Part shown: positions 8,319 through 35,628 of the stretch, in pieces | Layout of the letters: the number at the start of each line of letters is the position of its first letter | Position numbering within the stretch: position 1 is the stretch's first letter | Assembly (NCBI GenBank): GCA_051652765.1 | Contig: JBOFUV010000077.1 | Span: 1 to 41,940, forward strand | Direction: 5' to 3' | Source of the DNA: Microcoleaceae cyanobacterium | GTDB lineage: Bacteria > Cyanobacteriota > Cyanobacteriia > Cyanobacteriales > Microcoleaceae | Length of the DNA stretch: 41,940 bases | Notes under the pieces: generated by a model | What the model was told of the DNA's origin: nothing | Database searches by the model: none | What the model saw: the letters and a program-made list of their open reading frames with translations, nothing else | Position numbers and translations under genes: made by a program

Positions 8319-8355
8319 AATCCTCGTGGGAAGGGCTTTAGCCCCCATGAGGATT
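8319..8355. other. GC-rich hairpin in the divergent kdpA / kinase promoter region
   Basis: AATCCTCGTGG...GGGC-TTTA-GCCC-CCATGAGGATT; nested stem with one G-U pair and a small bulge. Confidence 0.6.
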
Positions 8356-13305: not shown

Positions 13306-16300
13306 CTAGATTTTAGTCAGCTCCATGATTCGGTCAAAGCGGAAGTTGTCTACCAAATCCCGAAGTGCTGCGTTCAGGTCTGTGTGCTCCGGCGGAATTT
13401 GTTCAATCAGTTGAGAGGTCAGCAAATCACTACACTGAGACGCAGCATTGTGCAATTCCTCGAGCCACCCTTGGGGCATCACCCATAAGGACTCAGGATT
13501 CAGCACGAACGCTGATGAATTCCGGCGGGCTGCAGCCACACTGGACAGAGCCGGATCTTCCACTTCATAGAGATACTCGATGCCTAAGTGCTGACCAATC
13601 GTTGCCAGCAGTCCTGTCTCTTGATAAGGCTTCCGCACAAAGTCATCACAACCAATTGATAAGATCAACTGTCGCTCCTCTTCAAACGCACTAGCAGTCA
13701 AAGCAATGATCACTGTTTTCTCGGATTCATCCAGGGCTTTGATCCGTTTTGTTGCTTCGTAGCCATCCATGACAGGCATTCGCATATCCATCAAAATCAA
13801 GTCAGGATGCCAGTCTATCCAAATATCGATCGCCTCTTGCCCATTCTCTGCCTGTTTCACTTTGAATCCTAACCCTTCTAGCAGTTTGACTAACAGCAGG
13901 CGGTTCGTGAACTTATCTTCCACTACGAGGATGCGGGGGATTGGCTGTTGGGGGAGGAGCCCAATGACTTTTTGTGGAAACAACCCAGATTGAGTCGCCT
14001 GTACGTCTGACAATTCAGCCTGAATATCAAACTTAAACAGACTACCCACGCCCAACTGCGAATACACCTGGATTTCCCCACCCATCAGTTGGACAAACTT
14101 TTGGCTAATGGGCAACCCTAAACCCGTTCCTTCCCCTGATTTGATCCCGACTTCGGTCTGATTAAAGGCTTCAAACAGTTGATCCAATTCTTGGTTTGCA
14201 ATTCCTGGCCCTGTATCTTCTATTTCAAAGGAAATTGTTAGAGGTTTTCCTTCAGAATCTGAAGCTTGACCCAGAGCTAATGACACTCTCAGGGTCACTA
14301 GCCCCCGTTGGGTGAACTTAATGGCGTTGCCCAGGAGGTTGATTAAAACTTGACGCAGTTTGTTCTCATCTGTTTTAACGTACTGGGAAACATCAGCACT
14401 CCAGTCGAAGATCAGGTCTAAACCTTTTGATTTGGCTTTGAGGTGGAGCATTTCATATAAACTCTGCAAGAGGCGATGCAGATCAAAGTCTGAGGGATTG
14501 AGGAGAATTCGTCCGGCTTCGATTTTTGACATCTCCAAAATGTCGTTGATCAGACTCAGGAGATGTTCCCCAGAACGGGCAATAATGCCGACATACTGTT
14601 GATGCTCTTCGGACAAACCAGAGTCATGGTTCATCAGTTGAGTAAAGCCCAGGATCGCATTCAGGGGAGTGCGAAGTTCATGGCTCATGTTAGCCAAAAA
14701 TTCACTCTTAGAACGATTGGCGGCATCGGCAGACTCCTTCGCCTGTTTTAATTCTTCTGCCTGTTGCTGGGTTTTAGCCAAGAGTTCTGCTTGCTGTACC
14801 GCCACACCTAACTGGGTTCCGACCTGAACCACCATCTGAATTTCGACTTCCTGCCACTGCCGGGGACTGGAATTTTGATAGGTTGCCAGCAATCCCCAGA
14901 GTTGAGTACCACAAAAGATGGGTACGGTAATGTAGGCTTTGGCCTGGAACTGCTCTAGGAGTTCAACGTAGCAGAGTTCAAAGTTTGCCTGGTAAATATC
15001 GTGAACACAGAGATAACTCGCTCCCTGACGATAGGCTCCTCCTTGAGTTTCTTGGAGATAGGTATCCTGGAGGGTTTTCTTCTCTACTTGAACCAATTTT
15101 TGGACGACACAATCATCTGCCTGAATAGCTTGCTGAGTCACAATCGAGGACTGTTCTTGATCCTGAGTTTGCAGTTGCATCAGGGAAGTCCAATCCTCAG
15201 TCACAGACTCTGCAACAAATTTGCCACTCCAGTCGGGATTGAATTGGTAGATCACGACCCGGTCGCTCTTCGTTGCCGCCCTTAACTCCTGCACTGTGCA
15301 TCTAAAGATTGTCTCCAGTTCGAGCGATCGCCGCATTTGCTGAATGATATTGGAGAGGGCCTTTTCTCGCTCTGCCATCTGCCGTACCTTGCCTTCTGAG
15401 TGCTTGCGTTCGGTGATATCGAGGGCTGTTCCCAGGGCGCGAATCATTCTCCCCTGACTATCATAGAGACCTTCTCCCCTCGCTTCGATGTGGTGCACTG
15501 AACCATCTGGATGCACAATCCGACAGTCAAACTCAGCAAATTGACCCACATCCAAGACCTGCTTCACATTCCTCCGCCAGAGTTCCCGATCCTCAGGATG
15601 AATTTGCCGGATCAATTGAGCATAGCCAGGTTCCCCCTGGTTTGGGTGTTGTCCGAAAATCCTAAACATTTCCTCTGACCAGGTGACTTTTTGAGTCAAG
15701 ATCTCCCAGTCCCAATTCCCAACATGGGCAACCCGCTGGGCTGTTGCTAGACTGGATTCACTGGATCGCAGCTTGTCTTCAGCCTGTTTGCGGTCGATGC
15801 CCAAGGCAATACTGCTGGCAATAGAAGCAACTTCTTCCAGCAAAATTTCAGGCAATGGATGGGGGGAAAAAATGGCCATAACTCCTAAGAGTTCATCCTT
15901 GATCACCAGGGAATATCCTGCAAAAGCAACAATCTGCTCTTGAACAATCCAATCATGGCCTAAAAATTCTTTGTCTTGGTGCAGGGTGTTGGTGAGATAG
16001 GGTTGGTGATCGTGAACAATCTCCCTGAACCGAGATTGATCAACCGAAATCCGATCGTAGCTGTTGCCCCAAAGACGGGACTCTTTCACGCCAACATCGG
16101 CTTCAAGCTGAAGCCATTGCTGATCTGGATCGAGCAGCCAAATACAGGCAAGAGTGGCATCTAGATGTGCCTGAAGGGCGATCGCACAGCGCTCCAGCAT
16201 ATCCTGCAAGGACTCTACTTCGGTGAGAGCTGTGCCAATATCTGCTCGCAGGGCAGAGATCTGAACTTGCTGTCGCAGGGTTGCTTCTGTGCGCTTGCGT

Positions 16301-18675
16301 TCTGTGATGTCATGGACAACGCCCACCAAGGCTGGATTGCCAGACAAATCGGTAAACCCAATTTTTTTTGTAATTAACGTATGGGTAATGTTCTGAGCAT
16401 CAATAAAGGTTTCTTCCTGCTCCACCTCAGTCTTAGAAGCCAGTACTTGATCGTCGCTGTCGGCAAAGACTTGAGCTTGAGTCAAGGGCATGGTCTCGGT
16501 ATCAAGATAACCCAGCAGTGCCTGTCGAGGACGCCCCACCAACTGACAAAATGCTTCATTCACCATTGTCCAGCGATGATCCTGATCTTTGACAAAAATG
16601 GGATCGGCGACGGCATTGATGACCCGATTGAGAAAGGCTTCGCTGGCTTTCAAGGCGGTTTCGGCCTGCTTGATTTCCGTAATGTCGCTGGCAGTGCCTA
16701 AAATTTGTTGAGGGAGGCCAGATTTTGCCTTACTAAACACCGTGTCTCGACTCACCAGCCATAACCAATGACCATGCTGGTGCTGCATCCGATACTCAAC
16801 CTCGAAGATATCTCCCTCATATCCAATGGCCATCTGGGCATAGTAGTCCTCCATCCGAGCCAGATCCTCAGGACACATTAGAGCCTGCATCAGGGTTTGA
16901 TCCATTGCCTGAATTTCTGCGGCGGTGTAGCCCAAAATGTCAACCACAGTTGGGTTGATGTAGAGGTTTTTCTGTGCTTCTAGATCGTACAAATAGAGAA
17001 TACTGGGACTAGCATCGGCAATCCGCTGAACCCAGAGCTGACTGGCCCGCAATGCTTCTTCCGCTTGCTTGTGTTCCTGAGATTCTATGGCCAAAGCCGC
17101 CATGTAAGCGAGGTAGCTGGCGAAGTTCTGTTCTTCAATCACCCATTCATGCTGAGATTGGAGTTGTTCTAACCAGATTGCCCCCTGAACTTGTCCCTTC
17201 AGTTGGATCGGCACAATCAAAACAGAGGTGACTTTTCCGGGGGCCCAGTAAACATCAGTGAGTTCTTGAGTGCGAGGATCAGTCTGAACGCTCACAGCAC
17301 TGATCATCCGCTCGGAGTCCATGACCTGAAAATAACAGGGATAGTCTGCACGCTCTAGCTTGTCGGTCAAATAGTCAGGGAACTCCTTTGTTGAAACAGG
17401 GATCTCTAGATTGTCATAGCGGTAAGTCCGACGGAGGTGAGTGCGATCGCTGCTGTAGAGCCAAATACTTGCCCCTTCAACACTCAGGGTGCGAGCCGCA
17501 ACTCCAGCAATTTCCTGCAACGCCTCTTCCAGATTCCCCTCATAAATCTGTTGACTTTGAGCCAGTTCTAGCAATCCTCCCTGTTGCTTTCTCAGTCGAA
17601 TTCCACTGGTTAACAAGCTAAACTCGGCCACAACCCGATCCTGAACCTCTCGTTCCAGGGCGACATTGGCCAGTTCTAAATCCATCGTTCGTTGCTGTAG
17701 GGCTTTGGTGGCCGCTTGAACTCGCATGGCCAACTGACCGTGAGTCTCTTGAAGCGCTTTCTCTGTCTGTAGGCGTTGTAGTTCAGCCGCCGCTCTCGCC
17801 GCAAAGATTGTGAGTACCGCTTGGGGAATTGCTTCATCCTTGAGGGGACGATCACTGACAATGCACAGCACCCCAATCGGAGACTGAGACTGATCGCACA
17901 AGGGTAATCCTAGATAGCACTCCGCCTTCAAATGTTGTAAATCAAGACTTTCTGGAAACAATTCCCTCACTCCAGATTGAAAGAACTGGAGCTGGCCAGA
18001 TTGAATCACTTGCTCACAAGGCTGCCCCGCCAGACACTCTCGATTCTCCTGAAGCTGCCCTCCAGACCAAAATGCTAGGGTTTTGAAGGTGAGAGGTTTC
18101 TGGATTAGGACTTCGGCTAAAACAACATGGGGAACATCTAGAACAAGGGCCAATTGTTGAACCAGGGTTGCAAAAAAAGGCTGCCCAGTCACGGAGGCTG
18201 TTTCGTTGACCAGATGCCCCAAGAGCGTTGCGAACGTTTTACTTTGTTCGCAGGTGAGACTGGAATGATCGGGCTGCTCTAGGGATGCTTGCACTGTTCT
18301 GGACAGAGCTGGTTTCCTCAGTTGATATGTTAACCAAAACGCTAGGGTTCCTATCGCAAGAGTCAGCAATCCTTCCAGCCAATCTAGAGGACTGGCAGAT
18401 CTCCAAAAATTCAGTTCGATCATCTGTTCGAGCAGATGCAGAATACTGCTGAATAGTCCCAATCCACCCCAGACGATTAGAAGTTGTTTAAAAAAGGTTT
18501 GAGGGCGAGCGGTTAGCCATTGAGGATGCTTGTGGAACAGATGAATACATGAACCATAGGCCAACAAAAGCGCTAAGTCGCTGACTAGGTTCTGTAACTG
18601 AGTTAAGAATTGACCCTGGAATAAACCGAGGTAACTGTTTGTCTCTGACAAGATAATGCCTAAAATTTCTCCCAT
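13306..18675 (-). CDS. Multi-sensor hybrid histidine kinase (TM-GAF-GAF-PAS-PAS-GAF-PAS-CBCR GAF-HisKA-HATPase-REC)
   Basis: FLANMSHELRTPLN H-box; NLLGNAIKFT; DTGPGI and GTGLGL; REC DLILMDMRMP; three PAS/PAC ending DIT; last GAF with DRVVIY, DTYLQ, CY, LWGLL. Confidence 0.92.
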   Translation of the reverse strand: MGEILGIILSETNSYLGLFQGQFLTQLQNLVSDLALLLAYGSCIHLFHKHPQWLTARPQTFFKQLLIVWGGLGLFSSILHLLEQMIELNFWRSASPLDWLEGLLTLAIGTLAFWLTYQLRKPALSRTVQASLEQPDHSSLTCEQSKTFATLLGHLVNETASVTGQPFFATLVQQLALVLDVPHVVLAEVLIQKPLTFKTLAFWSGGQLQENRECLAGQPCEQVIQSGQLQFFQSGVRELFPESLDLQHLKAECYLGLPLCDQSQSPIGVLCIVSDRPLKDEAIPQAVLTIFAARAAAELQRLQTEKALQETHGQLAMRVQAATKALQQRTMDLELANVALEREVQDRVVAEFSLLTSGIRLRKQQGGLLELAQSQQIYEGNLEEALQEIAGVAARTLSVEGASIWLYSSDRTHLRRTYRYDNLEIPVSTKEFPDYLTDKLERADYPCYFQVMDSERMISAVSVQTDPRTQELTDVYWAPGKVTSVLIVPIQLKGQVQGAIWLEQLQSQHEWVIEEQNFASYLAYMAALAIESQEHKQAEEALRASQLWVQRIADASPSILYLYDLEAQKNLYINPTVVDILGYTAAEIQAMDQTLMQALMCPEDLARMEDYYAQMAIGYEGDIFEVEYRMQHQHGHWLWLVSRDTVFSKAKSGLPQQILGTASDITEIKQAETALKASEAFLNRVINAVADPIFVKDQDHRWTMVNEAFCQLVGRPRQALLGYLDTETMPLTQAQVFADSDDQVLASKTEVEQEETFIDAQNITHTLITKKIGFTDLSGNPALVGVVHDITERKRTEATLRQQVQISALRADIGTALTEVESLQDMLERCAIALQAHLDATLACIWLLDPDQQWLQLEADVGVKESRLWGNSYDRISVDQSRFREIVHDHQPYLTNTLHQDKEFLGHDWIVQEQIVAFAGYSLVIKDELLGVMAIFSPHPLPEILLEEVASIASSIALGIDRKQAEDKLRSSESSLATAQRVAHVGNWDWEILTQKVTWSEEMFRIFGQHPNQGEPGYAQLIRQIHPEDRELWRRNVKQVLDVGQFAEFDCRIVHPDGSVHHIEARGEGLYDSQGRMIRALGTALDITERKHSEGKVRQMAEREKALSNIIQQMRRSLELETIFRCTVQELRAATKSDRVVIYQFNPDWSGKFVAESVTEDWTSLMQLQTQDQEQSSIVTQQAIQADDCVVQKLVQVEKKTLQDTYLQETQGGAYRQGASYLCVHDIYQANFELCYVELLEQFQAKAYITVPIFCGTQLWGLLATYQNSSPRQWQEVEIQMVVQVGTQLGVAVQQAELLAKTQQQAEELKQAKESADAANRSKSEFLANMSHELRTPLNAILGFTQLMNHDSGLSEEHQQYVGIIARSGEHLLSLINDILEMSKIEAGRILLNPSDFDLHRLLQSLYEMLHLKAKSKGLDLIFDWSADVSQYVKTDENKLRQVLINLLGNAIKFTQRGLVTLRVSLALGQASDSEGKPLTISFEIEDTGPGIANQELDQLFEAFNQTEVGIKSGEGTGLGLPISQKFVQLMGGEIQVYSQLGVGSLFKFDIQAELSDVQATQSGLFPQKVIGLLPQQPIPRILVVEDKFTNRLLLVKLLEGLGFKVKQAENGQEAIDIWIDWHPDLILMDMRMPVMDGYEATKRIKALDESEKTVIIALTASAFEEERQLILSIGCDDFVRKPYQETGLLATIGQHLGIEYLYEVEDPALSSVAAARRNSSAFVLNPESLWVMPQGWLEELHNAASQCSDLLTSQLIEQIPPEHTDLNAALRDLVDNFRFDRIMELTKI

Positions 18676-19384
18676 ATTTCTTGCACAACACGTAACCTCA
18701 TTCAGAGGATTGCTGCTAAATATTAGCTATTTTAGCCGTTAAATCTAATCGGTCTAAGTAGTTAAATCTTAGCTTTGAGCCACAACTTTTGAAGAGTTGT
18801 GAAATATTAGAATGCCAGCCTGACCTGATTCGACTAGCCCGCAAGTGGTTTGCCTAGATCAACTGTGTAGACTGGATTGACGCTAGGAAACCCAATCAGC
18901 CTTTGAGAGCGTTGGTTTTGAGCTTTAGTCTCGCAACCTCGACACCAGCAGACACAACCCAAGATCAGCTTGACAAAGCACCCGTTCTAACTAAGGCCAA
19001 ACAGACAGAATAAACTCCTCTTACCCCTTTGGTTTGGGGTGCAAGCAACGGCCCTAGAACAAGCTTACGACGGCAAGCTCGCTAGATGTCGGCGACTTGG
19101 AGATGAACTACTCAATCCTGATGCTGTGGGAGACTTGACTCTGAATTCGAATAATATGAACGATATTCAACTTCTCTACTAGTATAGAGTGTAGCTAGAG
19201 TTCTATCCAAAGCAGTAAAAAACGGAGATAGAACTGGCAGAGAGGGTGTGCCGATTCCAGAAATGCACTATGGACATTATGAAGATGCATTGAAAACGGG
19301 GTTAGCATCTCATCTGTCATATCGAGTAACATAGCTAACATCAAGTGTCTTACTCGTAAAGTTCCTCCAGCCACTTTAAATCCC

Positions 19385-21463
19385 ATGACCATTGATGAAT
19401 TGATCCAGTTACTCAATGCTAGTCAGCCCAGTCCTCTGACTGCCCTCCAGGAACTTATTCTGCGTCATGCTTGGGACGGCAAAACCTATACGGTGATTGC
19501 CCAAGAAGCATTTTATGGAGCAGAACGGGTTCGGAAAGTTGCAGCCGGACTATGGTTATTGGCCAGTGAGGTTTTGGGAGAGCCGATTAGCAAAGCGAAT
19601 TTTCGCAAGCTGCTAGAACCTCGACCCCTGAGTCCAGCTCAACAACAGTCGATTCGAAGTCGCTCAAGCCTCAGTTCTATTCCAAATCTGGAATTTCCTG
19701 ACAGTCCCTTGGCTCCTGACTCTGAGTTCTATATTCCGCGCCCCCCCATTGAAGATTTAGCCCATGCAAAGCTGCTAGAACCGGGCAGCTTAATCCGGAT
19801 CAAGGCTCCTCGCAAAATGGGCAAAAGTTCGCTGATTCTGCATATTCTGGATCGGGCGAGTCAAGAGAACTATCAGATTATTCATCTCGACTTGGGTCAG
19901 GCTGACAGTGCGGTCTTTTCGAGTTTGGATCGGTTCCTGCGGTGGTTCTGTGCCAATATGAGCCGAGAGCTAAACCAGGTTCCCAATTTAAATGAATACT
20001 GGGATGAGGATATTGGCAGCAAGGTAAGCTGTACCATTTATGTTCAAACGTGTTTGCTCGCTCAATTGTCCGCACCTTTAGTGCTTGCCTTGACTGAGAT
20101 TGATCGAGTCTTTGAATATCCTGAAATTGCCAAAGAGTTCCTACCGTTGTTGCGCTTTTGGCATGAACAGGCTCGCAAAACTGAAATCTGGCAAAAGCTC
20201 CGCTTAATCGTATCCTATTCTACAGAGGTTTACATTCCCCTGAGTTTGAACCAGTCTCCTTTCAATATTGGGCTGCCTTTGACTCTGCCTCCCTTCACCC
20301 CTGAGCAGGTGTTAGAGCTGGCTCGACGCTATGGTTTAACTTGGTGCAGTCAGGTTGATATTGACCAATTGATGGGAATTGTGGGTGGACATCCCTACTT
20401 GATTCAACTCGCGCTCCACCACTTGACATTTCCCCAACATTCTCTCAATCCAATGTCAGCCCTGTTTATGCCACCCGCTAGAGATCGCACAGAAACCTGG
20501 GAACAACAACGACAACGACTACAAGACTTGCTGCGTCAGGCTCCTACAGAAGCAGGGATTTACAATGATCATTTGCGCCGGATGCTATCTATGGTGCAAT
20601 CTGATTCCCATCTGCGGCTAGCCCTCCAACAGGTTGTTTCGAGTGATCAGGGGGTTTCTCTTGAGCCGACCCTAGCCTACAAACTCAACAGTTTGGGACT
20701 GGTCAATTTGGATGGGGATTACACGACTCCGAGTTGCCAACTCTATGCCGTCTATTTCCGACATCAACTCATACAGTCTGACCGGGTGAGTGCACTGGTG
20801 GAAGCCGAGGTTGACCAAGGGTCTGACTTTTTGGGTAACGCTAACCCAACCTTAAAGTTACTGGGCAAACCCGAACAGCTCAAAAAAGAAAACCTGGAGT
20901 TACAGCAACTTTGTAATCTCGATGAACTCACGCAACTCGCCAACAAGCGCTACTTCGACAGCTATCTCAAGCTCGAATGGCAGCGATCGCTCCGAGATCA
21001 AACTCATCTTTCAGTTGTCCTAGCGGATATAGACTTTTTTAAGATTTTTAATGCGATCTATGGCTACTCTGCCGGGGATAGCTGTCTTCAGCAAATTGCC
21101 CAAACCATTCGAGACTGTATCAATCGGCCTGATGACTTGGTGGCTCGCTATGGCGGAGAGGAATTCATGGTGCTGTTACCGCGAACCGATGTGTCTGGGG
21201 CGGTCTGTGTGGCAGAGAGAATTCGTGAGCAGATCAAGGCCCTAGGAATTGATATTAAGAGCTACAAATTTGGCGGGTTTCCTGAAGAATTTGTGACGGT
21301 GAGTGTGGGCGTGGCGAGCACCATTCCTAACGCAAGTGAGTCTCACCATGCCTTGATTCAAGGGGCTGAACGGGCGCTGCATGAATCAAAGCGCAAGGGC
21401 CGCAACCGAGTTACCGTAAGTCACTTTCAAGTGAGCCAAGAGCAACTCAAGGTTCAAGGTTAA
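19385..21463 (+). CDS. HTH + AAA_35 (STAND) ATPase + GGDEF diguanylate cyclase
   Basis: N-terminal LQELILR.AW.GKTY..IA HTH; FYIPRPP; Walker A APRKMGKSS; SPFNIG; GGHPYL; C-terminal DELTQLAN, DIDFFK, RPDDLVARYGGEEF, GRNRV. Confidence 0.88.
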   Translation: MTIDELIQLLNASQPSPLTALQELILRHAWDGKTYTVIAQEAFYGAERVRKVAAGLWLLASEVLGEPISKANFRKLLEPRPLSPAQQQSIRSRSSLSSIPNLEFPDSPLAPDSEFYIPRPPIEDLAHAKLLEPGSLIRIKAPRKMGKSSLILHILDRASQENYQIIHLDLGQADSAVFSSLDRFLRWFCANMSRELNQVPNLNEYWDEDIGSKVSCTIYVQTCLLAQLSAPLVLALTEIDRVFEYPEIAKEFLPLLRFWHEQARKTEIWQKLRLIVSYSTEVYIPLSLNQSPFNIGLPLTLPPFTPEQVLELARRYGLTWCSQVDIDQLMGIVGGHPYLIQLALHHLTFPQHSLNPMSALFMPPARDRTETWEQQRQRLQDLLRQAPTEAGIYNDHLRRMLSMVQSDSHLRLALQQVVSSDQGVSLEPTLAYKLNSLGLVNLDGDYTTPSCQLYAVYFRHQLIQSDRVSALVEAEVDQGSDFLGNANPTLKLLGKPEQLKKENLELQQLCNLDELTQLANKRYFDSYLKLEWQRSLRDQTHLSVVLADIDFFKIFNAIYGYSAGDSCLQQIAQTIRDCINRPDDLVARYGGEEFMVLLPRTDVSGAVCVAERIREQIKALGIDIKSYKFGGFPEEFVTVSVGVASTIPNASESHHALIQGAERALHESKRKGRNRVTVSHFQVSQEQLKVQG

Positions 21464-21469
21464 GTTAAC

Positions 21470-21652
21470 TGGGTCAGCATTGACCTTACGCTCGCTTTTA
21501 CCTGAATCGATAAAGGACAAATTTAGGAGGAGCGGCATTATTCCTCTGGCTAGGACTAAAATGTCCAGAGCCTTTATTGTTCCGCAGGTAGCAGCGCGAT
21601 AAAGAGAGTTCATTGTTTCTTTAACCGAGAGTTTTGGGTTTTGGGTCAGCAT
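21470..21652. other. Structured intergenic element flanked by 11-bp direct repeats TGGGTCAGCAT
   Basis: Repeats at 21470-21480 and 21642-21652; nested helices TACCTG/CAGGTA, CGATAAAGG/CCTTTATTG, GAGGAG/TTCCTC, GGAC/GTCC. Confidence 0.5.
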
Positions 21653-24600
21653 GGTTGCTCGCAGGTATCAAGTTGGGGGATGTTTATCAAATGACAATCC
21701 TCACTATGTAGAACGAGATGCAGATGTACAGCTTCACACCGCACTTCGACAGGGGGAGTTCTGTTATGTGTTGAATTCCCGACAAATGGGAAAGTCTTCC
21801 CTGTTAGTTCGGATCAAGCGCCGCTTAGAACAACAAGGTTATGTCTGTGCGACCCTAGACATGACCAGTTTGGTGAGTGAAGAAACCACTTCAGCCCAGT
21901 GGTATAAAGGCATTGTTGCTCAACTCTGGCTAGAGCTGAATCTGCTGGGAACCTTTAATGTGAAATCCTGGTGGCAGTCGGAAGCAGAATTTTCAGCGTT
22001 ACAGCGTCTAGGTCGATTTTTTGCTGAGTTATTACTGACTCACTTTCCGCAGCAAAACCTATTTATCTTAATCGATGAAATTGATAGCATCCTGCGGCTA
22101 CCGTTCAAGGCTGACGATTTTTTTTCTTTGATTCGTTACTGTTACAATCAGCGCGCGATTAACCCTGAGTATCACCGAATTAACTTTGCTGTATTCGGCG
22201 TAGCTGCCCCTGCTGATCTGATTCAAAATCGCACCCTGAACCCGTTTAATATCGGCCAATCGATTGAACTTCACGGCTTTCGCGAGACTGAAGTTGCTCC
22301 GTTGGCCCAGGGATTGGCAGAGTATGTGCAAAAGCCAGAAGCCCTATTGCAAGAAATTTTAAACTGGACGCAGGGGCAACCGTTTCTCACCCAAAAACTC
22401 TGTCAGATTGTCTGGCAACTCAGTCAGAGCAAGATCAGTGACGGTAAATTAGCGCTCCCGCCAGGGACAGAGCCCTTCTGGATTGAACAAGTCATCCGTT
22501 CTCACATGATTGATCGCTGGGAAACCCAAGATGAACCGGAACACCTACGCACCATTCGCGATCGCCTCTTGGATCAGAAGAGTCCTTACATGGGACGCAT
22601 CCTCGCCCTTTACCAACACATGCTCTATGGGCTTGACGTTGAGGTAGATGACAGCCGAGAACAAATTGAGTTGTTGCTGAGTGGCTTAGTCGTCAGACAT
22701 CAGGGCCGACTCCAGGTTAAAAATCCGATCTATCAAGAAGTGTTCAACCTGGAGTGGGTCAAGCGTCAACTGGCCAAGCTCCGTCCCTATTCCCAAACCT
22801 TCGATGCTTGGATCGTCTCCAATCAACGGGATCACTCTCGCCTCCTCCGGGGGCAAGCCCTTCAAGATGCCCAATACTGGGCCCAAGGCAAAAGCTTAAG
22901 TGATTTAGATTATCAATTTATTGTGGCGAGCCAAGAACTCGACTGGCAGGAGAAGCAAACCGCCCTGGAAGCAGAACGCACAAAAGAAGTTCTGGCCCGG
23001 TTGAGACAAGAACAGAAAGTCAGTCGGTTACAGCGATCGCTCTTGGGGATGATCAGTACGGCCTTCGTGATTGTGGGCGGACTGGGTTTGACGATCTTTT
23101 ACCAGTATCGCAACGCTCAGTTGAGTGAAATTCAAGCCATTGCCTTGTCTTCAGAGGCATTACTCGCGTCTGGTCAGAAATTAGAAGCCTTAGTTGAAGC
23201 CCTGAAGGCCAAACAAAAACTAGACAAGTTACCGAATGTTGATCCCAAAGTCCAGGCTTCTGTCACGGTGACCCTCCGGAAGGCCCTTTACCAAACGGAA
23301 GAATCCAACCGTTTAATCGGCCATCAGAAAGCAGTTTGGGATGTTGCCTTCAGTCCAGATGGGCGCTACATTGCTACCGCAGGCGGGGACAACATGGTTA
23401 AGCTATGGCAGTCCAATGGCAAATTTTTAAGAACCCTTAAAGCTCATCAAGGCCCGGTTTGGGGCGTGGTCTTCAGTCCTGACAGCCAAACCCTGGCTTC
23501 TGGGAGTTGGGACAACACCGTGAAACTCTGGACAATTGACGGACAGCTCGAACGGACTTTGTCGGGTCATACGGCCGGGGTTTGGAGCGTGGCCTTTAGT
23601 CCAGATGGTCAATTCCTGGTCTCTGCCAGTGAAGACAAAACCCTCAAACTCTGGAACCGTTCTGGTCAACTCCAGAACACCTTGACAGGCCACACCGCCG
23701 GGATTTGGCGGGTTGCGTTTCGCCCTGACAGTCAACAAATTGCCTCTGCGAGTGAAGATGGTACAGTTAGACTTTGGAGCCTTAAGGGCAATTTGGAGCA
23801 AACCCTACAAGGTCATCAAGGCCCTGTTTGGGGAGTTGCCTATTCTCCCCGGTCGAGTTCTGACCTCCTGAATCGTTATCCGTTAGTCTCAGTGGGGGAT
23901 GATAAAACGATCAGGCTCTGGGAACAGGGTCAGTTGAAGCGCACCCTAACCGGACATCAGGCTGCAATCTGGAGTGCAGTTTTTAGTCCTGACGGTAAAA
24001 CCATCGCAACCGCAAGCTGGGATCGCACCGTGAAATTCTGGTCGTTGGATGGAACGCTGTTGAGAACTTTAGAGGGCCATCAGGAAAGACTCCGGGGGCT
24101 CGCTTTCAGTCCAAATGGAGAATTCATTGCGTCCTCCAGTGAAGATAAAACGGTGAAACTCTGGCAACTCCAGCATCCTCTGATAACAACCCTCAGAGGT
24201 CATACGGCTGGGGTAATTGCCCTCGCCGTGAATTCCAAAACTCAGCAAATTATTTCAGGGAGTGATGACCAGACGCTCAAACTGTGGAAGTTTGATGGCA
24301 CCTTGCTCGCAACCCTCAGGGGGCACACAGCAGGTGTTTTAGGGGTTGGGTTTAGCGTCGATGGGCAGCAAATCGTCTCGGCCAGTTGGGACAAAACAGT
24401 TAAACTCTGGACTGCCGAGGGAAAACTCCAACAAACTCTAGTCGGTCATAATGGCCCCGTCTGGGATGCCCAGTTTAGTCCCGACGGTCGCTTGATTGCT
24501 TCCGCCGACCGAGATGGCCTGATCAAGCTTTGGCAGATCGATCCCCAAGGCAAGTTTCAGAATACCAAAACCTTCAAAGGTCATCAGAATGAAATCAGGG

Positions 24601-25160
24601 CGATCGCCTTCAGCCCCGACGGACAGTTGTTTGCCTCAGCCAGCCTCGATCGAGCCCTCAAAATTTGGACCCGATCGGGAACCTTGCTGCATACCTTGAC
24701 CGGACATCGAGACGGGGTTGCTGATGTTGCCTTTAATCCACGCGGGGATTTAATTGCCTCAGCTAGTTTGGATGGCACAATTCGTCTATGGAGTCGCACA
24801 GGACTGATGCGAGAAACCTTTATTGGCCATCGGGATGGGACTTTAGGCGTTGCTTTCAGTCCTGATGGCCAAATGCTGGTCTCAGCAGGTTTAGATCGAA
24901 CCCTTAAACTTTGGAGTCGATCTGGAACCTTGCTAAAAACGCTTTACCGCCATGAAAGCGCGATTTGGCAGGTCAAGTTTGATCGAACCGGAAACGTACT
25001 CGCCTCAGCCGGAGAGGATCAAAGCATTCACCTCTGGAACCTGAAACAAATTTTATCCTCAGATGAATCCAGCGATGCCTGTGTCTGGCTAAGAAACTAT
25101 CTGGCTTCATCAAACGCTGAACAGGTCAGTCAGACTTGCCCACGTCAACTTCTAAATTAG
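21651..25160 (+). CDS. AAA_35 (STAND) ATPase + TM helix + 14 WD40 repeats
   Basis: YVERDAD, Walker A NSRQMGKSS, Walker B ILIDEID, PFNIG, GQPFLTQ; TM LLGMISTAFVIVGGLGLTIFY; 14 GH...AFSPDG...W-type repeats counted. Confidence 0.92.
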   Translation: MVARRYQVGGCLSNDNPHYVERDADVQLHTALRQGEFCYVLNSRQMGKSSLLVRIKRRLEQQGYVCATLDMTSLVSEETTSAQWYKGIVAQLWLELNLLGTFNVKSWWQSEAEFSALQRLGRFFAELLLTHFPQQNLFILIDEIDSILRLPFKADDFFSLIRYCYNQRAINPEYHRINFAVFGVAAPADLIQNRTLNPFNIGQSIELHGFRETEVAPLAQGLAEYVQKPEALLQEILNWTQGQPFLTQKLCQIVWQLSQSKISDGKLALPPGTEPFWIEQVIRSHMIDRWETQDEPEHLRTIRDRLLDQKSPYMGRILALYQHMLYGLDVEVDDSREQIELLLSGLVVRHQGRLQVKNPIYQEVFNLEWVKRQLAKLRPYSQTFDAWIVSNQRDHSRLLRGQALQDAQYWAQGKSLSDLDYQFIVASQELDWQEKQTALEAERTKEVLARLRQEQKVSRLQRSLLGMISTAFVIVGGLGLTIFYQYRNAQLSEIQAIALSSEALLASGQKLEALVEALKAKQKLDKLPNVDPKVQASVTVTLRKALYQTEESNRLIGHQKAVWDVAFSPDGRYIATAGGDNMVKLWQSNGKFLRTLKAHQGPVWGVVFSPDSQTLASGSWDNTVKLWTIDGQLERTLSGHTAGVWSVAFSPDGQFLVSASEDKTLKLWNRSGQLQNTLTGHTAGIWRVAFRPDSQQIASASEDGTVRLWSLKGNLEQTLQGHQGPVWGVAYSPRSSSDLLNRYPLVSVGDDKTIRLWEQGQLKRTLTGHQAAIWSAVFSPDGKTIATASWDRTVKFWSLDGTLLRTLEGHQERLRGLAFSPNGEFIASSSEDKTVKLWQLQHPLITTLRGHTAGVIALAVNSKTQQIISGSDDQTLKLWKFDGTLLATLRGHTAGVLGVGFSVDGQQIVSASWDKTVKLWTAEGKLQQTLVGHNGPVWDAQFSPDGRLIASADRDGLIKLWQIDPQGKFQNTKTFKGHQNEIRAIAFSPDGQLFASASLDRALKIWTRSGTLLHTLTGHRDGVADVAFNPRGDLIASASLDGTIRLWSRTGLMRETFIGHRDGTLGVAFSPDGQMLVSAGLDRTLKLWSRSGTLLKTLYRHESAIWQVKFDRTGNVLASAGEDQSIHLWNLKQILSSDESSDACVWLRNYLASSNAEQVSQTCPRQLLN

Positions 25161-25880
25161 GCAAATCAGTATACAAATCCTGAACAGAATACAGGGGTCA
25201 AGGTCAGAGATCGAATCCTCAAGGTTAGGAGTTAGATCGCTATCGGGATTGAAAATCTCTCTACAAATAGGCTCCGTAGCTCACGGTTACAGATGTTGCC
25301 GTTACAAAAAGCAGAAAATCATTTTGCCAGCATCTTCAGTCTGGTATAAATTGAGACCTTGAGACCTAAAGCTCACAATGTATTGCTGTACAATAACGAT
25401 GCTCTACTTAGGCAGTGAGCACGGTTTTACTTAGGGTTACAGGGTTTTTGTGTTCGGGCCTTTTGCGACTAATGCTAGTTATGGTGCATATTATTTGAGA
25501 GTCTGAGTTGCGAGAAGGGCACAGGTTTGTTGACGGGTATGGTCTTTTTTGATGCTTACTGAGTTGAGTGTAGCTTAGTTGCGGATAGGGTAGCATCGGA
25601 TTTTCTAGTTATTAAAGTCCATATTGATCCTTAAAATTTTTATGAGTTAAACCCTTCATGGAATCTTTACAGAGTTCTCATCAATTCTCGGTAAGTTTTT
25701 ACAAAACTGCCATGACTTTTAATAGGGCAGGATTATAGGATCTAGATAGGTTAGGAGTTTTCAAGTTTCTTCCTAGGCGCAGGAATACCAGGGGGGAGCT
25801 TATGTGTGAGGGGAAACATCAAAGATTAACTCTTGGAGTGGAGAGCAACATTTCACAAGGATTCATTAAGGGGGAAACCA

Positions 25881-27170
25881 ATGATTTCGCAAGCCCAAGG
25901 TTCACACGGAAAGGGATATGTCAACTCTCAGGTCAAACACTCCAGAGACATCTTTTGGCGTGCTGAATCACCTAGAGGAGAAAAGCTCAGAATTTTATTT
26001 TTAGCACCTCATCCCTTCTATCAAGATCGGGGAACTCCGATCAACAGCAGTATTTTTCTCAAAGCTCTGTCTGAGGATCAGCATCAAGTTGATGTTCTGG
26101 CTTACCCAGAGGGTCGGGACATTGAATATGAGAACGTCACGATTCACCGCACCGTCAAATGTCCTTTTGTATCCAATGTGCGGCCTGGGTTCTCTTGGAA
26201 AAAGCTAGTTTACGATGCTTTGATGGTCATCAAGGCAGCTCAACTGGTTTCCAAGAAACAATATGACATGGTTCAGGCCATTGAAGAGTCGGTGTTTATT
26301 GCCCTCTTGTTCAAAGTGCTGTTGAATATTCCCTATGTCTATGACATGGATTCCTCAATTGCTCAACAAATGATTGAACAGCTTCCCTGGCTGTCTCCCT
26401 TGGCCCCAGTTTTGAACTGGTTGGAAGGGCTAGCTGTAAAGCGAGCAAAAGCTGTTATTCCTGTGTGTGATGCGATCGCCGAAGACATTGCCCAATACAA
26501 CCCTGAAAAGGTGACGATTTTGCCTGATATTTCATTGCTGCAGGAAGAAGGGCATCCTGAGGTTGATGAAGATTTGCGGTCTGACCTCAAGCTTGGCGGC
26601 ACGATGTTAATGTATGTCGGCAATCTAGAAGGATATCAGGGTATTGACCTGATGTTGGAGGGGTTTGCCATGGCCTTGCGCCAAGACAGCACCCTTGACC
26701 TCGTGATTATTGGAGGAGAACCAGACAGCATTGCCCACTACCGCCAGAAAGCTGCACAACTAGGAGCAGGTCACAAGGTTCATTTTATGGGGCCTCGTCC
26801 TGCCAAACACTTGAGTAGCTACCTATCGCAGGCTGACATCTTGGTGTCTCCCCGCACGAAGGGCAAGAATACGCCGATGAAAATTTATTCCTATCTCGAC
26901 AGTGGCAAAGCGGTGCTAGCAACAAACCTGTTGACCCATACCCAGGTTCTGAACGACCAGGTGTCTCAGTTGGCTGAGCCCAGCCCAGAAAGCTTTGCAT
27001 CAGGTATGGTCACCCTAGCTCAAGATGTAGCTCTCCGCCAGGAGTTGGGATTAGCAGGTCAACAGCTTGTGCAAGAAAAGCACAGCTATCGGGCCTTCCA
27101 CAAAACTGTTAGCGAGCTTTATGACTGGTTGGCCAGTGAGTTGCTTCCTCCTCAGTATCAAGTGAGATAG
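25881..27170 (+). CDS. GT4-family glycosyltransferase
   Basis: LAPHPFYQDRGTP N-terminus; YVGNLEGYQG; ADILVSPR..NTPMKIYSY. ATG 25881 with AAGGGGG upstream preferred over TTG 25833. Confidence 0.88.
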   Translation: MISQAQGSHGKGYVNSQVKHSRDIFWRAESPRGEKLRILFLAPHPFYQDRGTPINSSIFLKALSEDQHQVDVLAYPEGRDIEYENVTIHRTVKCPFVSNVRPGFSWKKLVYDALMVIKAAQLVSKKQYDMVQAIEESVFIALLFKVLLNIPYVYDMDSSIAQQMIEQLPWLSPLAPVLNWLEGLAVKRAKAVIPVCDAIAEDIAQYNPEKVTILPDISLLQEEGHPEVDEDLRSDLKLGGTMLMYVGNLEGYQGIDLMLEGFAMALRQDSTLDLVIIGGEPDSIAHYRQKAAQLGAGHKVHFMGPRPAKHLSSYLSQADILVSPRTKGKNTPMKIYSYLDSGKAVLATNLLTHTQVLNDQVSQLAEPSPESFASGMVTLAQDVALRQELGLAGQQLVQEKHSYRAFHKTVSELYDWLASELLPPQYQVR

Positions 27171-27190
27171 TTGATTGCAATGATGAAAAT

Positions 27191-28861
27191 GTGATGATGA
27201 AAAGAAGTCTAGTTGCGCTGACTCGTCAGGTCTATGACATTCTGGTGATCGGTGGAGGGATCTATGGCGCTTGTGTGGCATGGGAAGCAAGTCTGCAAGG
27301 ATTGTCTGTAGCGTTGGTTGAACAGGCTGATTTTGGGGGTGCCACCTCAGCCAATAGTTTGAAAACCATTCATGGTGGATTCCGCTATCTGCAGAATGCC
27401 GATATCAAACGGATGCGAGAATCTATCTATGAGCGCAGAGCCCTGATGCAGATTGCGCCCCATTTAGTTCATCCTTTACCCGTGTTAGTGCCAACCTATG
27501 GTCATGGCATGAAAGGGAAAGAAATTCTCAAAATCGCTTTGGCCCTGAATGATATCATTAGCTTTGATCGCAATCGGCTGTCTGATGAGCAAAAGCATAT
27601 TCCCAGGGGTCGAGTCATTTCCAGGCAGCACTGTCAATCGGCGCTCCCTGGAATTCGGCCTGAAGGGCTCACAGGGGGGGCAATGTTTTATGATGGCCAA
27701 GTTTACAACTCTGAACGACTCACCTTGGCGTTTCTTCACTCCGCCAGTCAGGCCGGAGCTAACGTTGCCAACTACGTGAAAGTCACCGGGTTACTCCGTC
27801 AGGGCAATCAGGTGATTGGGGTTCAGGCCCAGGATGAACTGGAGGGGAACCAATTTGAGATCCAGGCCAAAATAGTGATTAATACCAGTGGCCCTTGGTT
27901 GGATCAGGTCGCTGGGTTACTAGACAAACAGTCGGCCAAACCTTCCCCTGTGCTAGCTCAAGCAATGAACTTGGTGACGACGCGACCCTTGTTTGAAACC
28001 TATGCGGTAGGTCTACCGGGTTCGAGTGAAGTGGGCAGTCGCTTTCTGTTTATTGCGCCTTGGCGGGGTCGATCGATTGTTGGCACTTGGTATGGGGTCT
28101 ATCGAGGTGACCCTGACCAGTTTAAGCTGACAGAGGTTCAGATTCAGGAATTTATTGACCAAGTCAATCTAACGTATCCGGGAGCTAGGCTAAATCGCGA
28201 GGATGTTGCCTGGGTGCATGGGGGGTTATTGCCTTGTGATGGGGTTGAGTCTGATACGGGAGAGCCAAAATTAGCGAAGCACTATCGGATTCACGATCAT
28301 GCCAAGGATGGGTGTCCTGGACTGATCTCGGTTGTCGGGGTTAAGTATACAACGGCTCGGGATGTGGCCCAGAAAGTCGTCCAGCAGATCTACAAGTCTT
28401 GGGGACAGTCGATGCCTACCTCAACGTCTGCCGTCACCCCCGTGTATGGTGGACAAATTACGGACTTTAATGGGTTCTTGCAGAAGGCGATCGCGTCTGA
28501 GTGTTTTTCTGCAGAGACCACTCGCCGTTTGGTCTACAACTATGGTTCCAACTATCCAATTGTGCTGTCGTATCTAAATCAAACCTCAGATGCTGCCCAG
28601 TTGCCGCCCGACAACCTGGCTGTTGCCCAAGCAGAAGTGCGACATGCGGTAGAAGAAGAAATGGCCCAAACCTTAAGTGATGTATTCTTCCGACGAACTG
28701 AACTCGGAAGCGCTGGATATCCAGGGGAAGAGATCTTACGAATGGGGGCTGAGACAATGGCTCAAGCCCTGGGTTGGCATCAAGCTCGGCTGGAGCAAGA
28801 GTTACAAACGGTTTGTCAGCGCTATTCTGTCCAGATGCCTACAGTTTCGGCCTGTAATTAA
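27191..28861 (+). CDS. FAD-dependent glycerol-3-phosphate dehydrogenase/oxidase-like protein (atypical)
   Basis: IGGGIYG FAD motif; GATSANSLKTIHGGFRYL; APHLVHPL; KYTTAR; C-terminal LSDVFFRRT. Confidence 0.85.
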   Translation: MMMKRSLVALTRQVYDILVIGGGIYGACVAWEASLQGLSVALVEQADFGGATSANSLKTIHGGFRYLQNADIKRMRESIYERRALMQIAPHLVHPLPVLVPTYGHGMKGKEILKIALALNDIISFDRNRLSDEQKHIPRGRVISRQHCQSALPGIRPEGLTGGAMFYDGQVYNSERLTLAFLHSASQAGANVANYVKVTGLLRQGNQVIGVQAQDELEGNQFEIQAKIVINTSGPWLDQVAGLLDKQSAKPSPVLAQAMNLVTTRPLFETYAVGLPGSSEVGSRFLFIAPWRGRSIVGTWYGVYRGDPDQFKLTEVQIQEFIDQVNLTYPGARLNREDVAWVHGGLLPCDGVESDTGEPKLAKHYRIHDHAKDGCPGLISVVGVKYTTARDVAQKVVQQIYKSWGQSMPTSTSAVTPVYGGQITDFNGFLQKAIASECFSAETTRRLVYNYGSNYPIVLSYLNQTSDAAQLPPDNLAVAQAEVRHAVEEEMAQTLSDVFFRRTELGSAGYPGEEILRMGAETMAQALGWHQARLEQELQTVCQRYSVQMPTVSACN

Positions 28862-28919
28862 GTATTAGTTACCGTCGCCTAATTTTTGTTGCCTTAAATT
28901 CTGTCTTTCTCAGGAACCT

Positions 28920-29462
28920 ATGCCCTCACCCATTGCCCACGCCGTTTCTGGCTATGTGCTGTCTCGGCTCCTGCCTATAAATTCAACTCCAGATCGGCCT
29001 CAGCTGAATATTTCAGTCCAAGACTATTACGCTATATTTGTGGCGATCGCTGCTGATTTTGACTTTATTCCCCAAGTGTTGACCGGGGCAGACTTTCACC
29101 GAGGGATCACCCACACGCTCATTTTTGCCCTTGGTTTCAGTTTGCTCTGGGCTTGGCCCATCGGTCGTTGCTTGAAAGTCTCTTACGGACAAATGGTGAA
29201 GTTCACCTTCATTCTCTATAGTTCTCATCTGGTTCTAGACTGGCTAACGGCTGGAGGTTTGGGGATGCAGCTCTTGTGGCCCATGACAACGACTTATTTC
29301 AAATCTCCCCTATCTTTGTTTCCGCCCGTACATCACTCCCGAGGGCTGTTAGATTTGAGTCATCTGGTGTTTGTCAGTTGGGAGTTATGCTACGCCTTGC
29401 TCATCTTAGTTGGGTTGAGGCTGTGGCAAACGACAAAACAATCCAAGCATCTTTCTGAATAA
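28920..29462 (+). CDS. Membrane metal-dependent hydrolase (YdjM-like)
   Basis: MPSPIAH, D-x-D, HRGITH, SHLVLD, LLWP motifs with TM segments. Confidence 0.82.
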   Translation: MPSPIAHAVSGYVLSRLLPINSTPDRPQLNISVQDYYAIFVAIAADFDFIPQVLTGADFHRGITHTLIFALGFSLLWAWPIGRCLKVSYGQMVKFTFILYSSHLVLDWLTAGGLGMQLLWPMTTTYFKSPLSLFPPVHHSRGLLDLSHLVFVSWELCYALLILVGLRLWQTTKQSKHLSE

Positions 29463-29538
29463 ACGCTCTGAATGAATGCCTGGAATGAAAGGGCACACTA
29501 GAGACCGTTAGACTTTTGGGGATTGAAGGGACTGAAAT

Positions 29539-31224: not shown

Positions 31225-31383
31225 TCTACTTCAATGAACGAGTTGAGTCATTAAAAAACCTTGCCGTTCTTAGTTGCGTCAGTTATGCTAGGGTTAACAG
31301 GAAATAGCTTGACAAATCCTGTTAGTATAAAACCCAACATACTGTAAAGTTCACAGCCAATTTTCTGAGGAGAGGAGAGTAAG

Positions 31384-32370: not shown

Positions 32371-32438
32371 GGGAATTATTTAATTGTTAATTCACAAATA
32401 CCCACTTCAGCCAGCCCTTTAGCAAACCCATTTCAGTT

Positions 32439-33236: not shown

Positions 33237-33543
33237 CGTTAATAATTCCTGTGTACACGACGGTTTGTTAAATGTTAAAAGGGAAAATCCTTAAGTTCCC
33301 TTGCTAGGAGATTTTATAGACAACTCCCAGCAAGATTAGCCACCAAACATCCTCTGTTAAGCCAAAAAAACCAAAGTTTCATCCTGCCTATTACCCCTGC
33401 CTATACTTATGAGTGGGGGTTAATAGGTTTTTCGAATGATCTGTGACTTTTGAAGGTCATGTGAGTATAGTAGGGAATAAAGGTGCAAAGCGTTGGGTTC
33501 ATTAATCACTTCATGGGTTTTTAGCTTAGCAGGAGTATTAAAA

Positions 33544-34593: not shown

Positions 34594-34700
34594 AAGACTG
34601 AAGTTAGGACTTCAAGTTGGGGTCTGAAGTTAAGCATTAAAGCTTAAATCGTTGAGCAGATCAATTAGCCAGTAATTAAGCAAGCAGGCAAGCAATAATT

Positions 34701-35480: not shown

Positions 35481-35628
35481 CCTGGGTCTCACGTTATTTT
35501 ATGTCTGGTTTGTAATGTCTGGTTTGTAAGTTCTAAGTTGTTTGAAACAAGCTAAATTTTACCCGCTAATCTTACTCGCTAATTGTGCACAAATTTAAAG
35601 GATTTATTCTCAATAACAAGGGGTTGTT

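What the first reader, a model, noticed from the sequence alone, without database searches (positions are those of the whole stretch)
19385..25160. Paired STAND (AAA_35) ATPases: membrane WD40 receptor plus HTH-STAND-diguanylate cyclase, a candidate NLR-like sensor/effector system with c-di-GMP output
Seen: two adjacent co-oriented AAA_35 proteins. One ends in a TM helix and exactly 14 WD40 repeats (two 7-blade propellers, on the far side of a membrane from the ATPase). The other has an N-terminal HTH and a C-terminal GGEEF domain. Known: STAND ATPases oligomerise on ligand binding, and GGDEF domains need dimerisation to work. Inference: ligand binding by the propellers drives hetero-oligomerisation that switches on c-di-GMP synthesis. 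AAA_35 pairs are common in filamentous cyanobacteria, but I know of no characterised one with this output.
Basis: partly seen in the sequence, partly recalled or inferred. Interest (0 to 1): 0.72.

Follow-up and report, generated by a model that had tools for sequence, protein, structure and literature searches.

The report
Paired ATPase sensor and c-di-GMP cyclase
Two neighbouring cyanobacterial genes encode related switch-type ATPases, one with a membrane helix and 14 WD40 repeats and one with a c-di-GMP-synthesis domain; they likely dock to relay an outside signal into c-di-GMP, a predicted and untested signalling route, although most close relatives of this cyclase gene have no such neighbour.

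Summary
Gene A (19385-21463) is HTH–AAA_35–coiled coil–GGEEF with an RxxD site; gene B (21651-25160) is AAA_35–TM–14 WD40. They are distant paralogues of a cyanobacterial STAND family in two co-diversifying types. B-types carry sensor domains and an invariant Walker B. A-types carry outputs (HTH, TIR, kinase, cyclases, caspase); none of 84 GGDEF-bearing ones keeps the Walker B aspartate. A and B cores are fused in three proteins, and a predicted A:B complex got weak support (0.57, control 0.00). GGDEF-A lies directly before B-WD40 in 20 of 32 HTH-less homologues but only 2 of 53 HTH-bearing ones. The pair is split in a same-genus genome, and three genomes hold HTH-A-GGDEF with no intact B found. 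Best reading (0.45): a modular, phosphotransfer-free sensor/output pair in which membrane-anchored B docks A and likely turns on c-di-GMP synthesis. Ligand, binding and direction are unshown, and NLR-like immunity is not supported. The family is named in print (Npun2340/2341, MNS clade; membership shown only indirectly); nine literature searches found no study of this pair. This scan found the same kind before on other DNA (e1-3076314).

The parts
19385..21463 (+). Gene A: HTH–STAND (A-type AAA_35)–coiled coil–GGDEF, 692 aa
19385..19660 (+). N-terminal helical HTH-like domain (PF26355), NarL/LuxR-like fold at middling Z
19685..20779 (+). A-type STAND core: Walker A APRKMGKS (19805-19828) intact; Walker B LVLALTEID (20078-20104) lacks the Asp; GxP motif GGHP (20384-20395)
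20870..20920 (+). Short predicted coiled coil leading into the DELT turn before the GGDEF domain (typical cyclase dimerisation linker; recalled)
20915..21421 (+). GGDEF domain: D548, K553, N556, D565 and GGEEF (21152-21166) present; RxxD inhibitory site (21125-21136)
21464..21650 (+). 187-bp gap; no terminator-like site found by the consensus scan
21651..25160 (+). Gene B: STAND (B-type AAA_35)–helical linker–TM–14 WD40–Cys pair, 1169 aa; the only B-type gene found in this genome
21651..22784 (+). B-type STAND core: Walker A NSRQMGKS (21774-21797), intact Walker B LFILIDEID (22059-22085), GQP motif (22374-22382), winged helix
22785..23039 (+). Conserved helical region ending in a ~40-residue helix to the membrane; no Pfam match
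23040..23096 (+). Predicted transmembrane helix, N-in/C-out by charge bias
23319..25043 (+). 14 WD40 repeats (two 7-blade propellers inferred); mean pairwise identity of repeat cores 47%
25080..25139 (+). C1144 and C1163, a conserved C-terminal cysteine pair, likely a disulfide outside the cytoplasm
13306..18675 (-). Divergent GAF/PAS hybrid histidine kinase; a divergent gene sharing its domains lies upstream of 23 of 46 HTH-A-GGDEF homologues (context, possibly linked)

Best explanation
Two adjacent genes encode paralogous STAND-type NTPases, B with a membrane helix and 14 WD40 repeats and A with an HTH and an intact GGEEF domain; B is likely a membrane-anchored sensor with a working ATPase, and it likely docks the probably hydrolysis-impaired A through core-to-core contact, which would bring A's GGDEF domains together and turn on c-di-GMP synthesis. 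Shown: domains, motifs, the family-wide split into sensor-bearing B-types and output-bearing A-types, gene adjacency, fusions, co-diversification. Inferred: extracytoplasmic propellers, A:B binding (weak prediction), loss of hydrolysis in A, activation rather than restraint, DNA binding by the HTH. Unknown: the ligand. The device would work like a two-component system that uses nucleotide-switch assembly in place of phosphotransfer. The coupling looks facultative: A-types can also stand alone.
For: (1) Division of labour (45 of the 53 flanking segments scanned). A cores carry TIR, LuxR-HTH+TIR, Ser/Thr kinase, adenylate/guanylate cyclase or caspase. B cores carry CHASE2, GAF, 7TMR-HD, peptidoglycan-binding, trypsin+COP23, or sit at the end of kinase–AAA_16–GAF(–PAS) proteins, the slot normally held by a histidine kinase (recalled). 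(2) Walker B D-E-x-D scores 1.00 in an alignment of 92 B cores. 0 of 84 GGDEF-bearing A cores keep the Asp, while Walker A G-K is kept in 84 of 84; 26 of 26 TIR, kinase, cyclase and caspase A cores keep the Asp. (3) GGDEF-A directly precedes B-WD40 in 20 of 32 HTH-less and 2 of 53 HTH-bearing homologues, and a propeller-less B in 9 more. (4) A and B cores are fused in L114, L115 and L209, in both orders. (5) A and B distances correlate over 49 pairs (r 0.66; 0 of 5000 permutations reach it). Read by eye, 22 of 22 pairs with A in the Walker-B-eroded clade have B in one clade, and 30 of 31 other pairs have B in the other. The propeller-less Bs paired with close homologues of A (L012, L013, L021) group near window B (7 rows, support 88), so the adjacency here looks ancestral. 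(6) Complex prediction: weak support, score 0.57, best of 3 controls 0.00, runs agree in at least 79% of contacts, partner pLDDT at least 83. The mark was reached by 116 of 157 solved complexes and 2 of 215 mismatches, but at 0.60 or under by only 18 of the 157 and by both mismatches. (7) Topology: 44 of 52 TM-bearing B-WD40 show positive-inside bias; 51 of 52 keep two C-terminal Cys against 3 of 8 TM-less ones.
Against: 44 of 53 HTH-A-GGDEF homologues have no adjacent B; 30 of the 44 are one orthologue clade in family f7, seen only 1.5 kb each side. None of the 9 other rows in A's nearest starred clade lies beside a B-WD40. In same-genus G002 the orthologues (83% and 77%) lie on different contigs with internal flanks, and B is broken after its TM. 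G031, G455 (one contig) and G493 hold HTH-A-GGDEF and no intact B was found (10 genomes examined, not drawn at random). The GGDEF catalytic set is degenerate in 22 of 53 HTH forms. Linked genes co-diversify by inheritance alone. The cores are paralogues resembling solved AAA+/STAND oligomers, so the complex score may reflect likeness. The five TM-less, Cys-less proteins are one clade.
Confidence: 0.45

Rival explanations
1. A is a self-sufficient one-component regulator: its own nucleotide-bound core oligomerises and controls the cyclase and the HTH, perhaps with input from the divergent GAF/PAS kinase. The adjacency to B is an inherited leftover with little function here.
For: 44 of 53 HTH forms have no adjacent B. 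Pair split and B broken in G002. No intact B found in three genomes with HTH-A-GGDEF. A divergent gene sharing domains with the window's kinase lies upstream in 23 of 46 loci, more often than B does. PF26355–PF14516–PF00990 occurs in 118 of the 120 best hits.
Against: This genome has a single B-type gene and it lies directly behind A, intact. HTH-less forms pair in 22 of 32 cases; fusions exist. Most genomes with a lone A hold B-types elsewhere (4 of 5), so pairing in trans is open.
Confidence: 0.28
2. B binds A but restrains it: the membrane-anchored B sequesters A, and a signal releases A to dimerise, as MalK and MalY restrain the STAND protein MalT (recalled).
For: Six pairs have a short B with a TM and no propeller, three a bare B, which suits an anchor or inhibitor. 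Lone A genes are common. The weak complex score fits binding of either sign.
Against: B, not A, keeps the full ATPase signature, which suits an active driver. B occupies transmitter-like slots behind sensor domains.
Confidence: 0.15
3. An NLR-like immune pair: the propellers detect a phage, predator or competitor molecule at the envelope, and c-di-GMP or the HTH triggers a defence response.
For: STAND plus 14 WD40 resembles Apaf-1-like receptors. Sister A-types carry TIR and caspase domains. Tandem arrays of up to four B-WD40 genes follow one A (L026). PMC8195603 places the Npun2340/2341 family in counter-invader architectures (one passage).
Against: No PADLOC match for A or for B residues 1-550. 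Window neighbours are Kdp, two-component and polysaccharide genes. The WD40 cores average 47% identity, not the near-identity recalled for fungal allorecognition receptors. GGDEF is not a killing effector (general knowledge).
Confidence: 0.12

Closest known systems
MNS-clade STAND NTPases, Npun2340/2341 family (Leipe et al. 2004, not held, recalled; named in PMC8195603)
   Same: B's core is closest in fold to archaeal PAB2304 (2qen, Z 20.6, rmsd 4.2, 317 aligned) and SSO1545 (2fna, Z 19.7, rmsd 4.2, 315 aligned), above NLR cores (Z 16.1 and lower). Cyanobacterial expansion with two paralogous types.
   Different: No reference Npun2340/2341 sequence could be compared. No GGDEF output, TM-WD40 partner or mechanism turned up in the passages and searches seen.
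MalT and other STAND transcription regulators
   Same: STAND core with a LuxR-like HTH; MalT is controlled by partner proteins (recalled); MalT core aligned at Z 13.9 (8bob).
   Different: HTH is N-terminal, A has no sensor repeats, a cyclase is attached, and the sensor is on a second, membrane-bound STAND.
Apaf-1-like, Avs and other NLR-like receptors; paired plant NLRs
   Same: STAND core, 14 WD40 blades, a two-gene pair with one eroded nucleotide motif.
   Different: TM helix between ATPase and sensor; effector C-terminal and on the partner; the eroded motif is in the effector-bearing chain; no defence-library match.
Two-component systems with GGDEF response regulators (PleD, WspR; recalled)
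   Same: Membrane sensor plus soluble output protein, swappable inputs and outputs, coiled coil before GGDEF, RxxD feedback site.
   Different: No histidine kinase or receiver domain; coupling is predicted to run through STAND-STAND contact.
iSTAND ternary systems (PMC7159879)
   Same: A STAND domain with eroded catalysis carrying effectors, in cyanobacteria.
   Different: No MoxR or vWA gene among the 28 window proteins scanned; A keeps its Walker A.

Membership tests
STAND NTPases | P-loop Walker A | tested here: met
   APRKMGKS in A, NSRQMGKS in B; G-K conserved
STAND NTPases | Walker B acidic residues, protein B | tested here: met
   LIDEID; D142, E143, D145 at 1.00 in 92 rows
STAND NTPases (catalytically active) | Walker B Asp, protein A | tested here: not met
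   T237; 0 of 84 GGDEF-bearing A cores have Asp. Bears on catalysis, not on fold.
STAND NTPases | Helical domain with GxP motif followed by a winged helix (feature recalled) | tested here: met
   GHP in A, GQP in B; helix-helix-hairpin at 314-364 in B's model; A aligned to B over 329 columns, probability 99.8. A's core was not modelled alone.
MNS clade, Npun2340/2341 family | Closer to archaeal MJ/SSO-type STANDs than to NACHT or AP-ATPases | tested here: met
   2qen Z 20.6 and 2fna Z 19.7 head the list; next 16.1; also ranks 1 and 3 in Foldseek. That these two are MNS-type is recalled.
MNS clade, Npun2340/2341 family | Direct homology to the founding Npun2340 and Npun2341 proteins | not testable with these tools
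   Founding paper not held; no reference sequence returned by any search
NLR-like/Avs immune receptors | N-terminal effector, central NTPase and C-terminal sensor in one chain | tested here: not met
   Domain scans: sensor and output are on separate ORFs
NLR-like/Avs immune receptors | Sensor in the cytoplasm | tested here: inconclusive
   TM, charge bias and Cys pair predict an outside location; not measured
NLR-like/Avs immune receptors | Match to known defence models or defence neighbourhood | tested here: inconclusive
   No PADLOC match to the cores, one WD40-driven hit (2023 library); no defence families among 28 window proteins
NLR-like/Avs immune receptors | Ligand-induced oligomerisation and anti-phage activity | not testable with these tools
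   Needs experiments
Active diguanylate cyclases | GG(D/E)EF plus metal- and guanine-binding Asp, Lys, Asn, Asp (set recalled) | tested here: met
   D548, K553, N556, D565, GGEEF; TIGR00254 above cut-off. The usual ND..GH reads NA..GY, effect unknown.
Active diguanylate cyclases | c-di-GMP synthesis | not testable with these tools
   Needs an assay
iSTAND ternary systems | MoxR and vWA genes in the same neighbourhood | tested here: not met
   None among the 28 window proteins scanned
Two-component systems | Histidine kinase and receiver domains | tested here: not met
   Neither A nor B has HisKA, HATPase or Response_reg matches among the families shown

The most novel reading that the evidence does not exclude
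Cyanobacteria run a widespread, unstudied signalling class parallel to two-component systems: a sensor-linked active STAND ATPase (B) switches a cognate output-linked STAND (A) by hetero-assembly, with interchangeable inputs (periplasmic WD40, CHASE2, GAF, 7TM-HD, kinase-AAA-GAF) and outputs (c-di-GMP, cNMP, TIR, kinase, transcription). This locus would be its transmembrane, c-di-GMP-producing member with a pseudo-ATPase receiver.
Probability: 0.35. Interest if true: 0.75.

Novelty: new variant of a known kind. Interest (0 to 1): 0.5.

Why it matters
A-type cores matched in 254 of 401 genomes searched across the class, and some relatives hold dozens of family members, yet none of nine literature searches found a functional study. 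If the cores couple as inferred, STAND ATPases, best known as intracellular immune receptors, would also carry signals across a membrane, and cyanobacterial c-di-GMP control of motility and biofilm would gain an input route without phosphotransfer. The GGDEF output gives an easy read-out, so this pair makes the whole family testable. If they do not couple, the locus is a common HTH–STAND–GGDEF gene beside a common STAND–WD40 gene.

Tried and rejected
The collection scan with protein A returned mostly plain GGDEF genes: L036-L110 were left out of the counts, as was one duplicate locus; L032-L035 entered the A tree only. Profile searches of solved sequences gave only P-loop-level matches. A search for long fused forms found no protein listing GGDEF among 22 hits (two domain lists were cut off; weak evidence). 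G008:C42 (L121) looked like an A-B fusion from its open-frame figure but has two in-frame stops. Sequencing runs: none was listed, no evidence either way. Promoter and terminator scan at chance level. A GCTACA box upstream of 25 of 30 f7 orthologues occurs once upstream of the window's A, at chance level (354 of 2297 genes here), so it was not claimed as an operator. Literature searches found no study of the pair; some searches returned mostly unrelated papers. Leipe 2004 is not held. The large supplementary files of PMC13581612, which likely list its 589 STAND clades, could not be read and may already cover this family; file 13 of PMC8195603 was not searched. Rejected: chance adjacency after a rearrangement (one B gene in a 5-Mb genome, concordant trees); an obligate two-gene system.
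Full report
Observation. The window (G000:C77) has two co-oriented ORFs at the stated coordinates, 692 and 1169 aa, 187 bp apart. A has AAA_35 and GGDEF matches, B has AAA_35 and 14 WD40 stretches, and I listed all 14 repeats. B has one strongly hydrophobic helix at 464-482. A's N-terminal domain carries PF26355 (the family name, an HTH of vWA-MoxR-associated proteins, is recalled). Its model resembles NarL/LuxR HTH domains at Z 7.1, a middling score, and Pfam gave only weak HTH hits across 62 homologues. The genome has three AAA_35 genes: A, B and an orphan HTH-core gene on C27. The closest named homologues of A come from Oscillatoriales and Microcoleaceae cyanobacteria; a filamentous habit is inferred.

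The cores. A and B cores are distant paralogues (20% identity, 329 columns, probability 99.8). B's model (pLDDT 91.0) is closest to archaeal PAB2304 (Z 20.6) and SSO1545 (Z 19.7), then plant NLRs (16.1, 16.0) and Orc1/Cdc6 (15.2) (Foldseek agrees). Both have the P-loop and GxP motif. This fits the MNS clade of STANDs, whose Npun2340/2341 family is named in PMC8195603 (one passage seen; supplement rows). I could not test membership directly. B's Walker B is invariant in 92 B cores. A's lacks the first Asp, as do all 84 full-length GGDEF-bearing A cores, while Walker A is intact in all. TIR, kinase, cyclase and caspase A-types keep the Asp (26 of 26). I infer that B hydrolyses ATP and that A binds nucleotide but hydrolyses poorly.

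The cyclase. D548, K553, N556, D565, GGEEF and an RxxD site are present, behind a short coiled coil. The usual ND..GH reads NA..GY, much as in the nearest homologues; its effect is unknown. Among homologues this catalytic set is intact in 31 of 53 HTH forms and 21 of 31 HTH-less forms, so many have decayed or become binders.

Topology. Of 60 B-WD40 proteins over 850 aa, 52 have the TM helix. Of these, 44 show positive-inside bias and 51 keep two C-terminal cysteines (the exception is a split gene); 3 of the 8 TM-less proteins keep them. The five that lack both are one clade, so this is close to a single event. An extracytoplasmic propeller is likely, not shown; periplasm and thylakoid lumen cannot be told apart.

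Neighbourhood survey. I fetched loci for 100 of the 150 listed A-type rows, 50 of the 150 listed B-type rows, 8 long-frame B loci, 12 rows picked by frame length, the 30 best loci, and 20 rows picked by length and coverage. The sample is biased to close relatives and kin are not independent. Of 85 GGDEF-bearing A homologues: HTH-less, 32: 20 directly upstream of B-WD40, 2 of a short B with TM, 10 with none (one at a contig edge). HTH-bearing, 53: 2 upstream of B-WD40 (L220, L221), 4 of a short B with TM, 3 of a bare B, 44 with none; 30 of the 44 are one orthologue clade in family f7 seen only 1.5 kb each side. So the cyclase/WD40 pair recurs across several families, but the window's exact architecture is the rare case. 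In same-genus G002, A keeps its upstream kinase and B its downstream glycosyltransferase cluster, but the break falls between them and B is interrupted after the TM. In G001, B starts at a contig end and no A was found. No intact B was found in G031, G455 or G493, which hold HTH-A-GGDEF. A divergent gene sharing domains with the window's kinase lies upstream in 23 of 46 HTH-form loci.

Evidence that the types work together. Effector swapping is real (45 of 53 flanking segments scanned): A-types carry TIR, LuxR+TIR, kinase, cyclase and caspase domains; B-types carry WD40, CHASE2, GAF, 7TMR-HD, peptidoglycan-binding or trypsin+COP23 domains, or terminate kinase–AAA_16–GAF(–PAS) proteins. Three proteins fuse both cores, one with a nucleotide cyclase between them. 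Distances correlate across 49 pairs (r 0.66, 0 of 5000 permutations; 0.47 among distant comparisons). All 36 GGDEF-bearing A rows of the tree and the window fall in one 51-row clade (support 91, quick method), and their partners in one B clade (support 98). Co-inheritance of linked genes can produce this without contact. The complex prediction gave weak support: 0.57 against a best control of 0.00, contacts agreeing at 79% or more, partner pLDDT 83 or more. The mark was reached by 116 of 157 solved complexes and 2 of 215 mismatches, but at 0.60 or under by only 18 of the 157 and by both mismatches. Paralogy to solved AAA+ oligomers may contribute.

Mechanism. I commit, at 0.45, to B as a membrane sensor ATPase that docks A and promotes GGDEF dimerisation, with RxxD feedback and possibly HTH-mediated transcription. 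Every step after the anatomy is inferred. Rivals: A independent (0.28), B as restraint (0.15), immune pair (0.12). Immunity is weak here: no PADLOC match to the cores, neighbours are Kdp, signalling and polysaccharide genes, and the repeats are not near-identical.

What is in print. PMC7159879 (passages) mentions rare GGDEF effectors in MoxR-vWA systems and inactive STANDs, a different context. PMC13581612 (passages, one section, 7 supplement files searched) maps 589 STAND clades including MNS, with no occurrence of GGDEF or Npun in what I could read; its large tables were unreadable here. PMC11119718 (one passage) lists AAA_35 as an accessory domain of sigma factors. PMC3501461 was seen as a search listing only. 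Searches found no study of this pair; subscription journals are mostly not covered. This scan reported the same kind in another genome (e1-3076314), an unchecked note that is not independent support.

Verdict. Real, well-formed and uncharacterised; a new variant of a named STAND family. The family-wide sensor/output logic is the interesting part. Coupling at this locus is plausible but facultative and unproven. Interest 0.5.

Noticed in passing
L264-L293, 400 bp upstream of HTH-A-GGDEF: A GCTACA box, often in two or three copies in the divergent promoter region, in 25 of 30 f7 orthologues against 72 of 400 other genes; candidate operator. The window has one copy (19190-19195), at chance level.
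   Followed up: partly
L113:8660-14710, L117:3496-9204, L119:8195-14293 (similar lengths in L114, L116, L118, L120, L205): 1900-2090 aa proteins, kinase–AAA_16–GAF(–PAS) in the three scanned, that end in a B-type STAND core where a histidine kinase is usual (recalled).
   Followed up: partly
L114:16340-19000, L115:12759-15038, L209:827-4687: A and B cores fused in one chain, in both orders; L114 has an adenylate/guanylate cyclase between them.
   Followed up: yes
L298, L299, L302, L305, L306: B genes of 513-531 aa ending just after the TM helix, with no propeller, directly behind GGDEF-bearing A genes.
   Followed up: partly
L026:1586-18277: One HTH-A gene followed by four tandem B-TM-WD40 genes; two-gene B arrays in L122, L136, L171, L202.
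   Followed up: no
L222-L224, L226, L227: Ser/Thr kinase–A genes paired with B-WD40 proteins that lack both the TM helix and the C-terminal cysteines: an apparently all-cytoplasmic version.
   Followed up: partly
L252, L254 (similar starts in L256, L258, L259): A-type genes of ~460 aa butt directly against a co-oriented gene, dCache-HAMP in the one scanned (L252), rather than a B gene.
   Followed up: no
G000:C27:7295-8680 (-): Orphan HTH–A-type core without effector or adjacent B; a possible second partner for B in trans. C114:18059-19213 shares the HTH region only.
   Followed up: no
window 25833-39183: Polysaccharide or glycoconjugate cluster (GT4, FAD oxidase, YdjM, methyltransferase, epimerases, hexapeptide transferases, deacetylase, GT2, pyruvyl transferase) downstream of B; its first four genes also follow B in G002 but not in G001.
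   Followed up: partly
window 1865-10316: kdpA-kdpB-kdpC and a short kdpD (sensor and Usp domains only) on the minus strand, with a divergent histidine kinase and LuxR-type response regulator.
   Followed up: no
window 11469-12830 (-): Fused N-acetylmuramoyl-L-alanine amidase and glucosaminidase domains.
   Followed up: no
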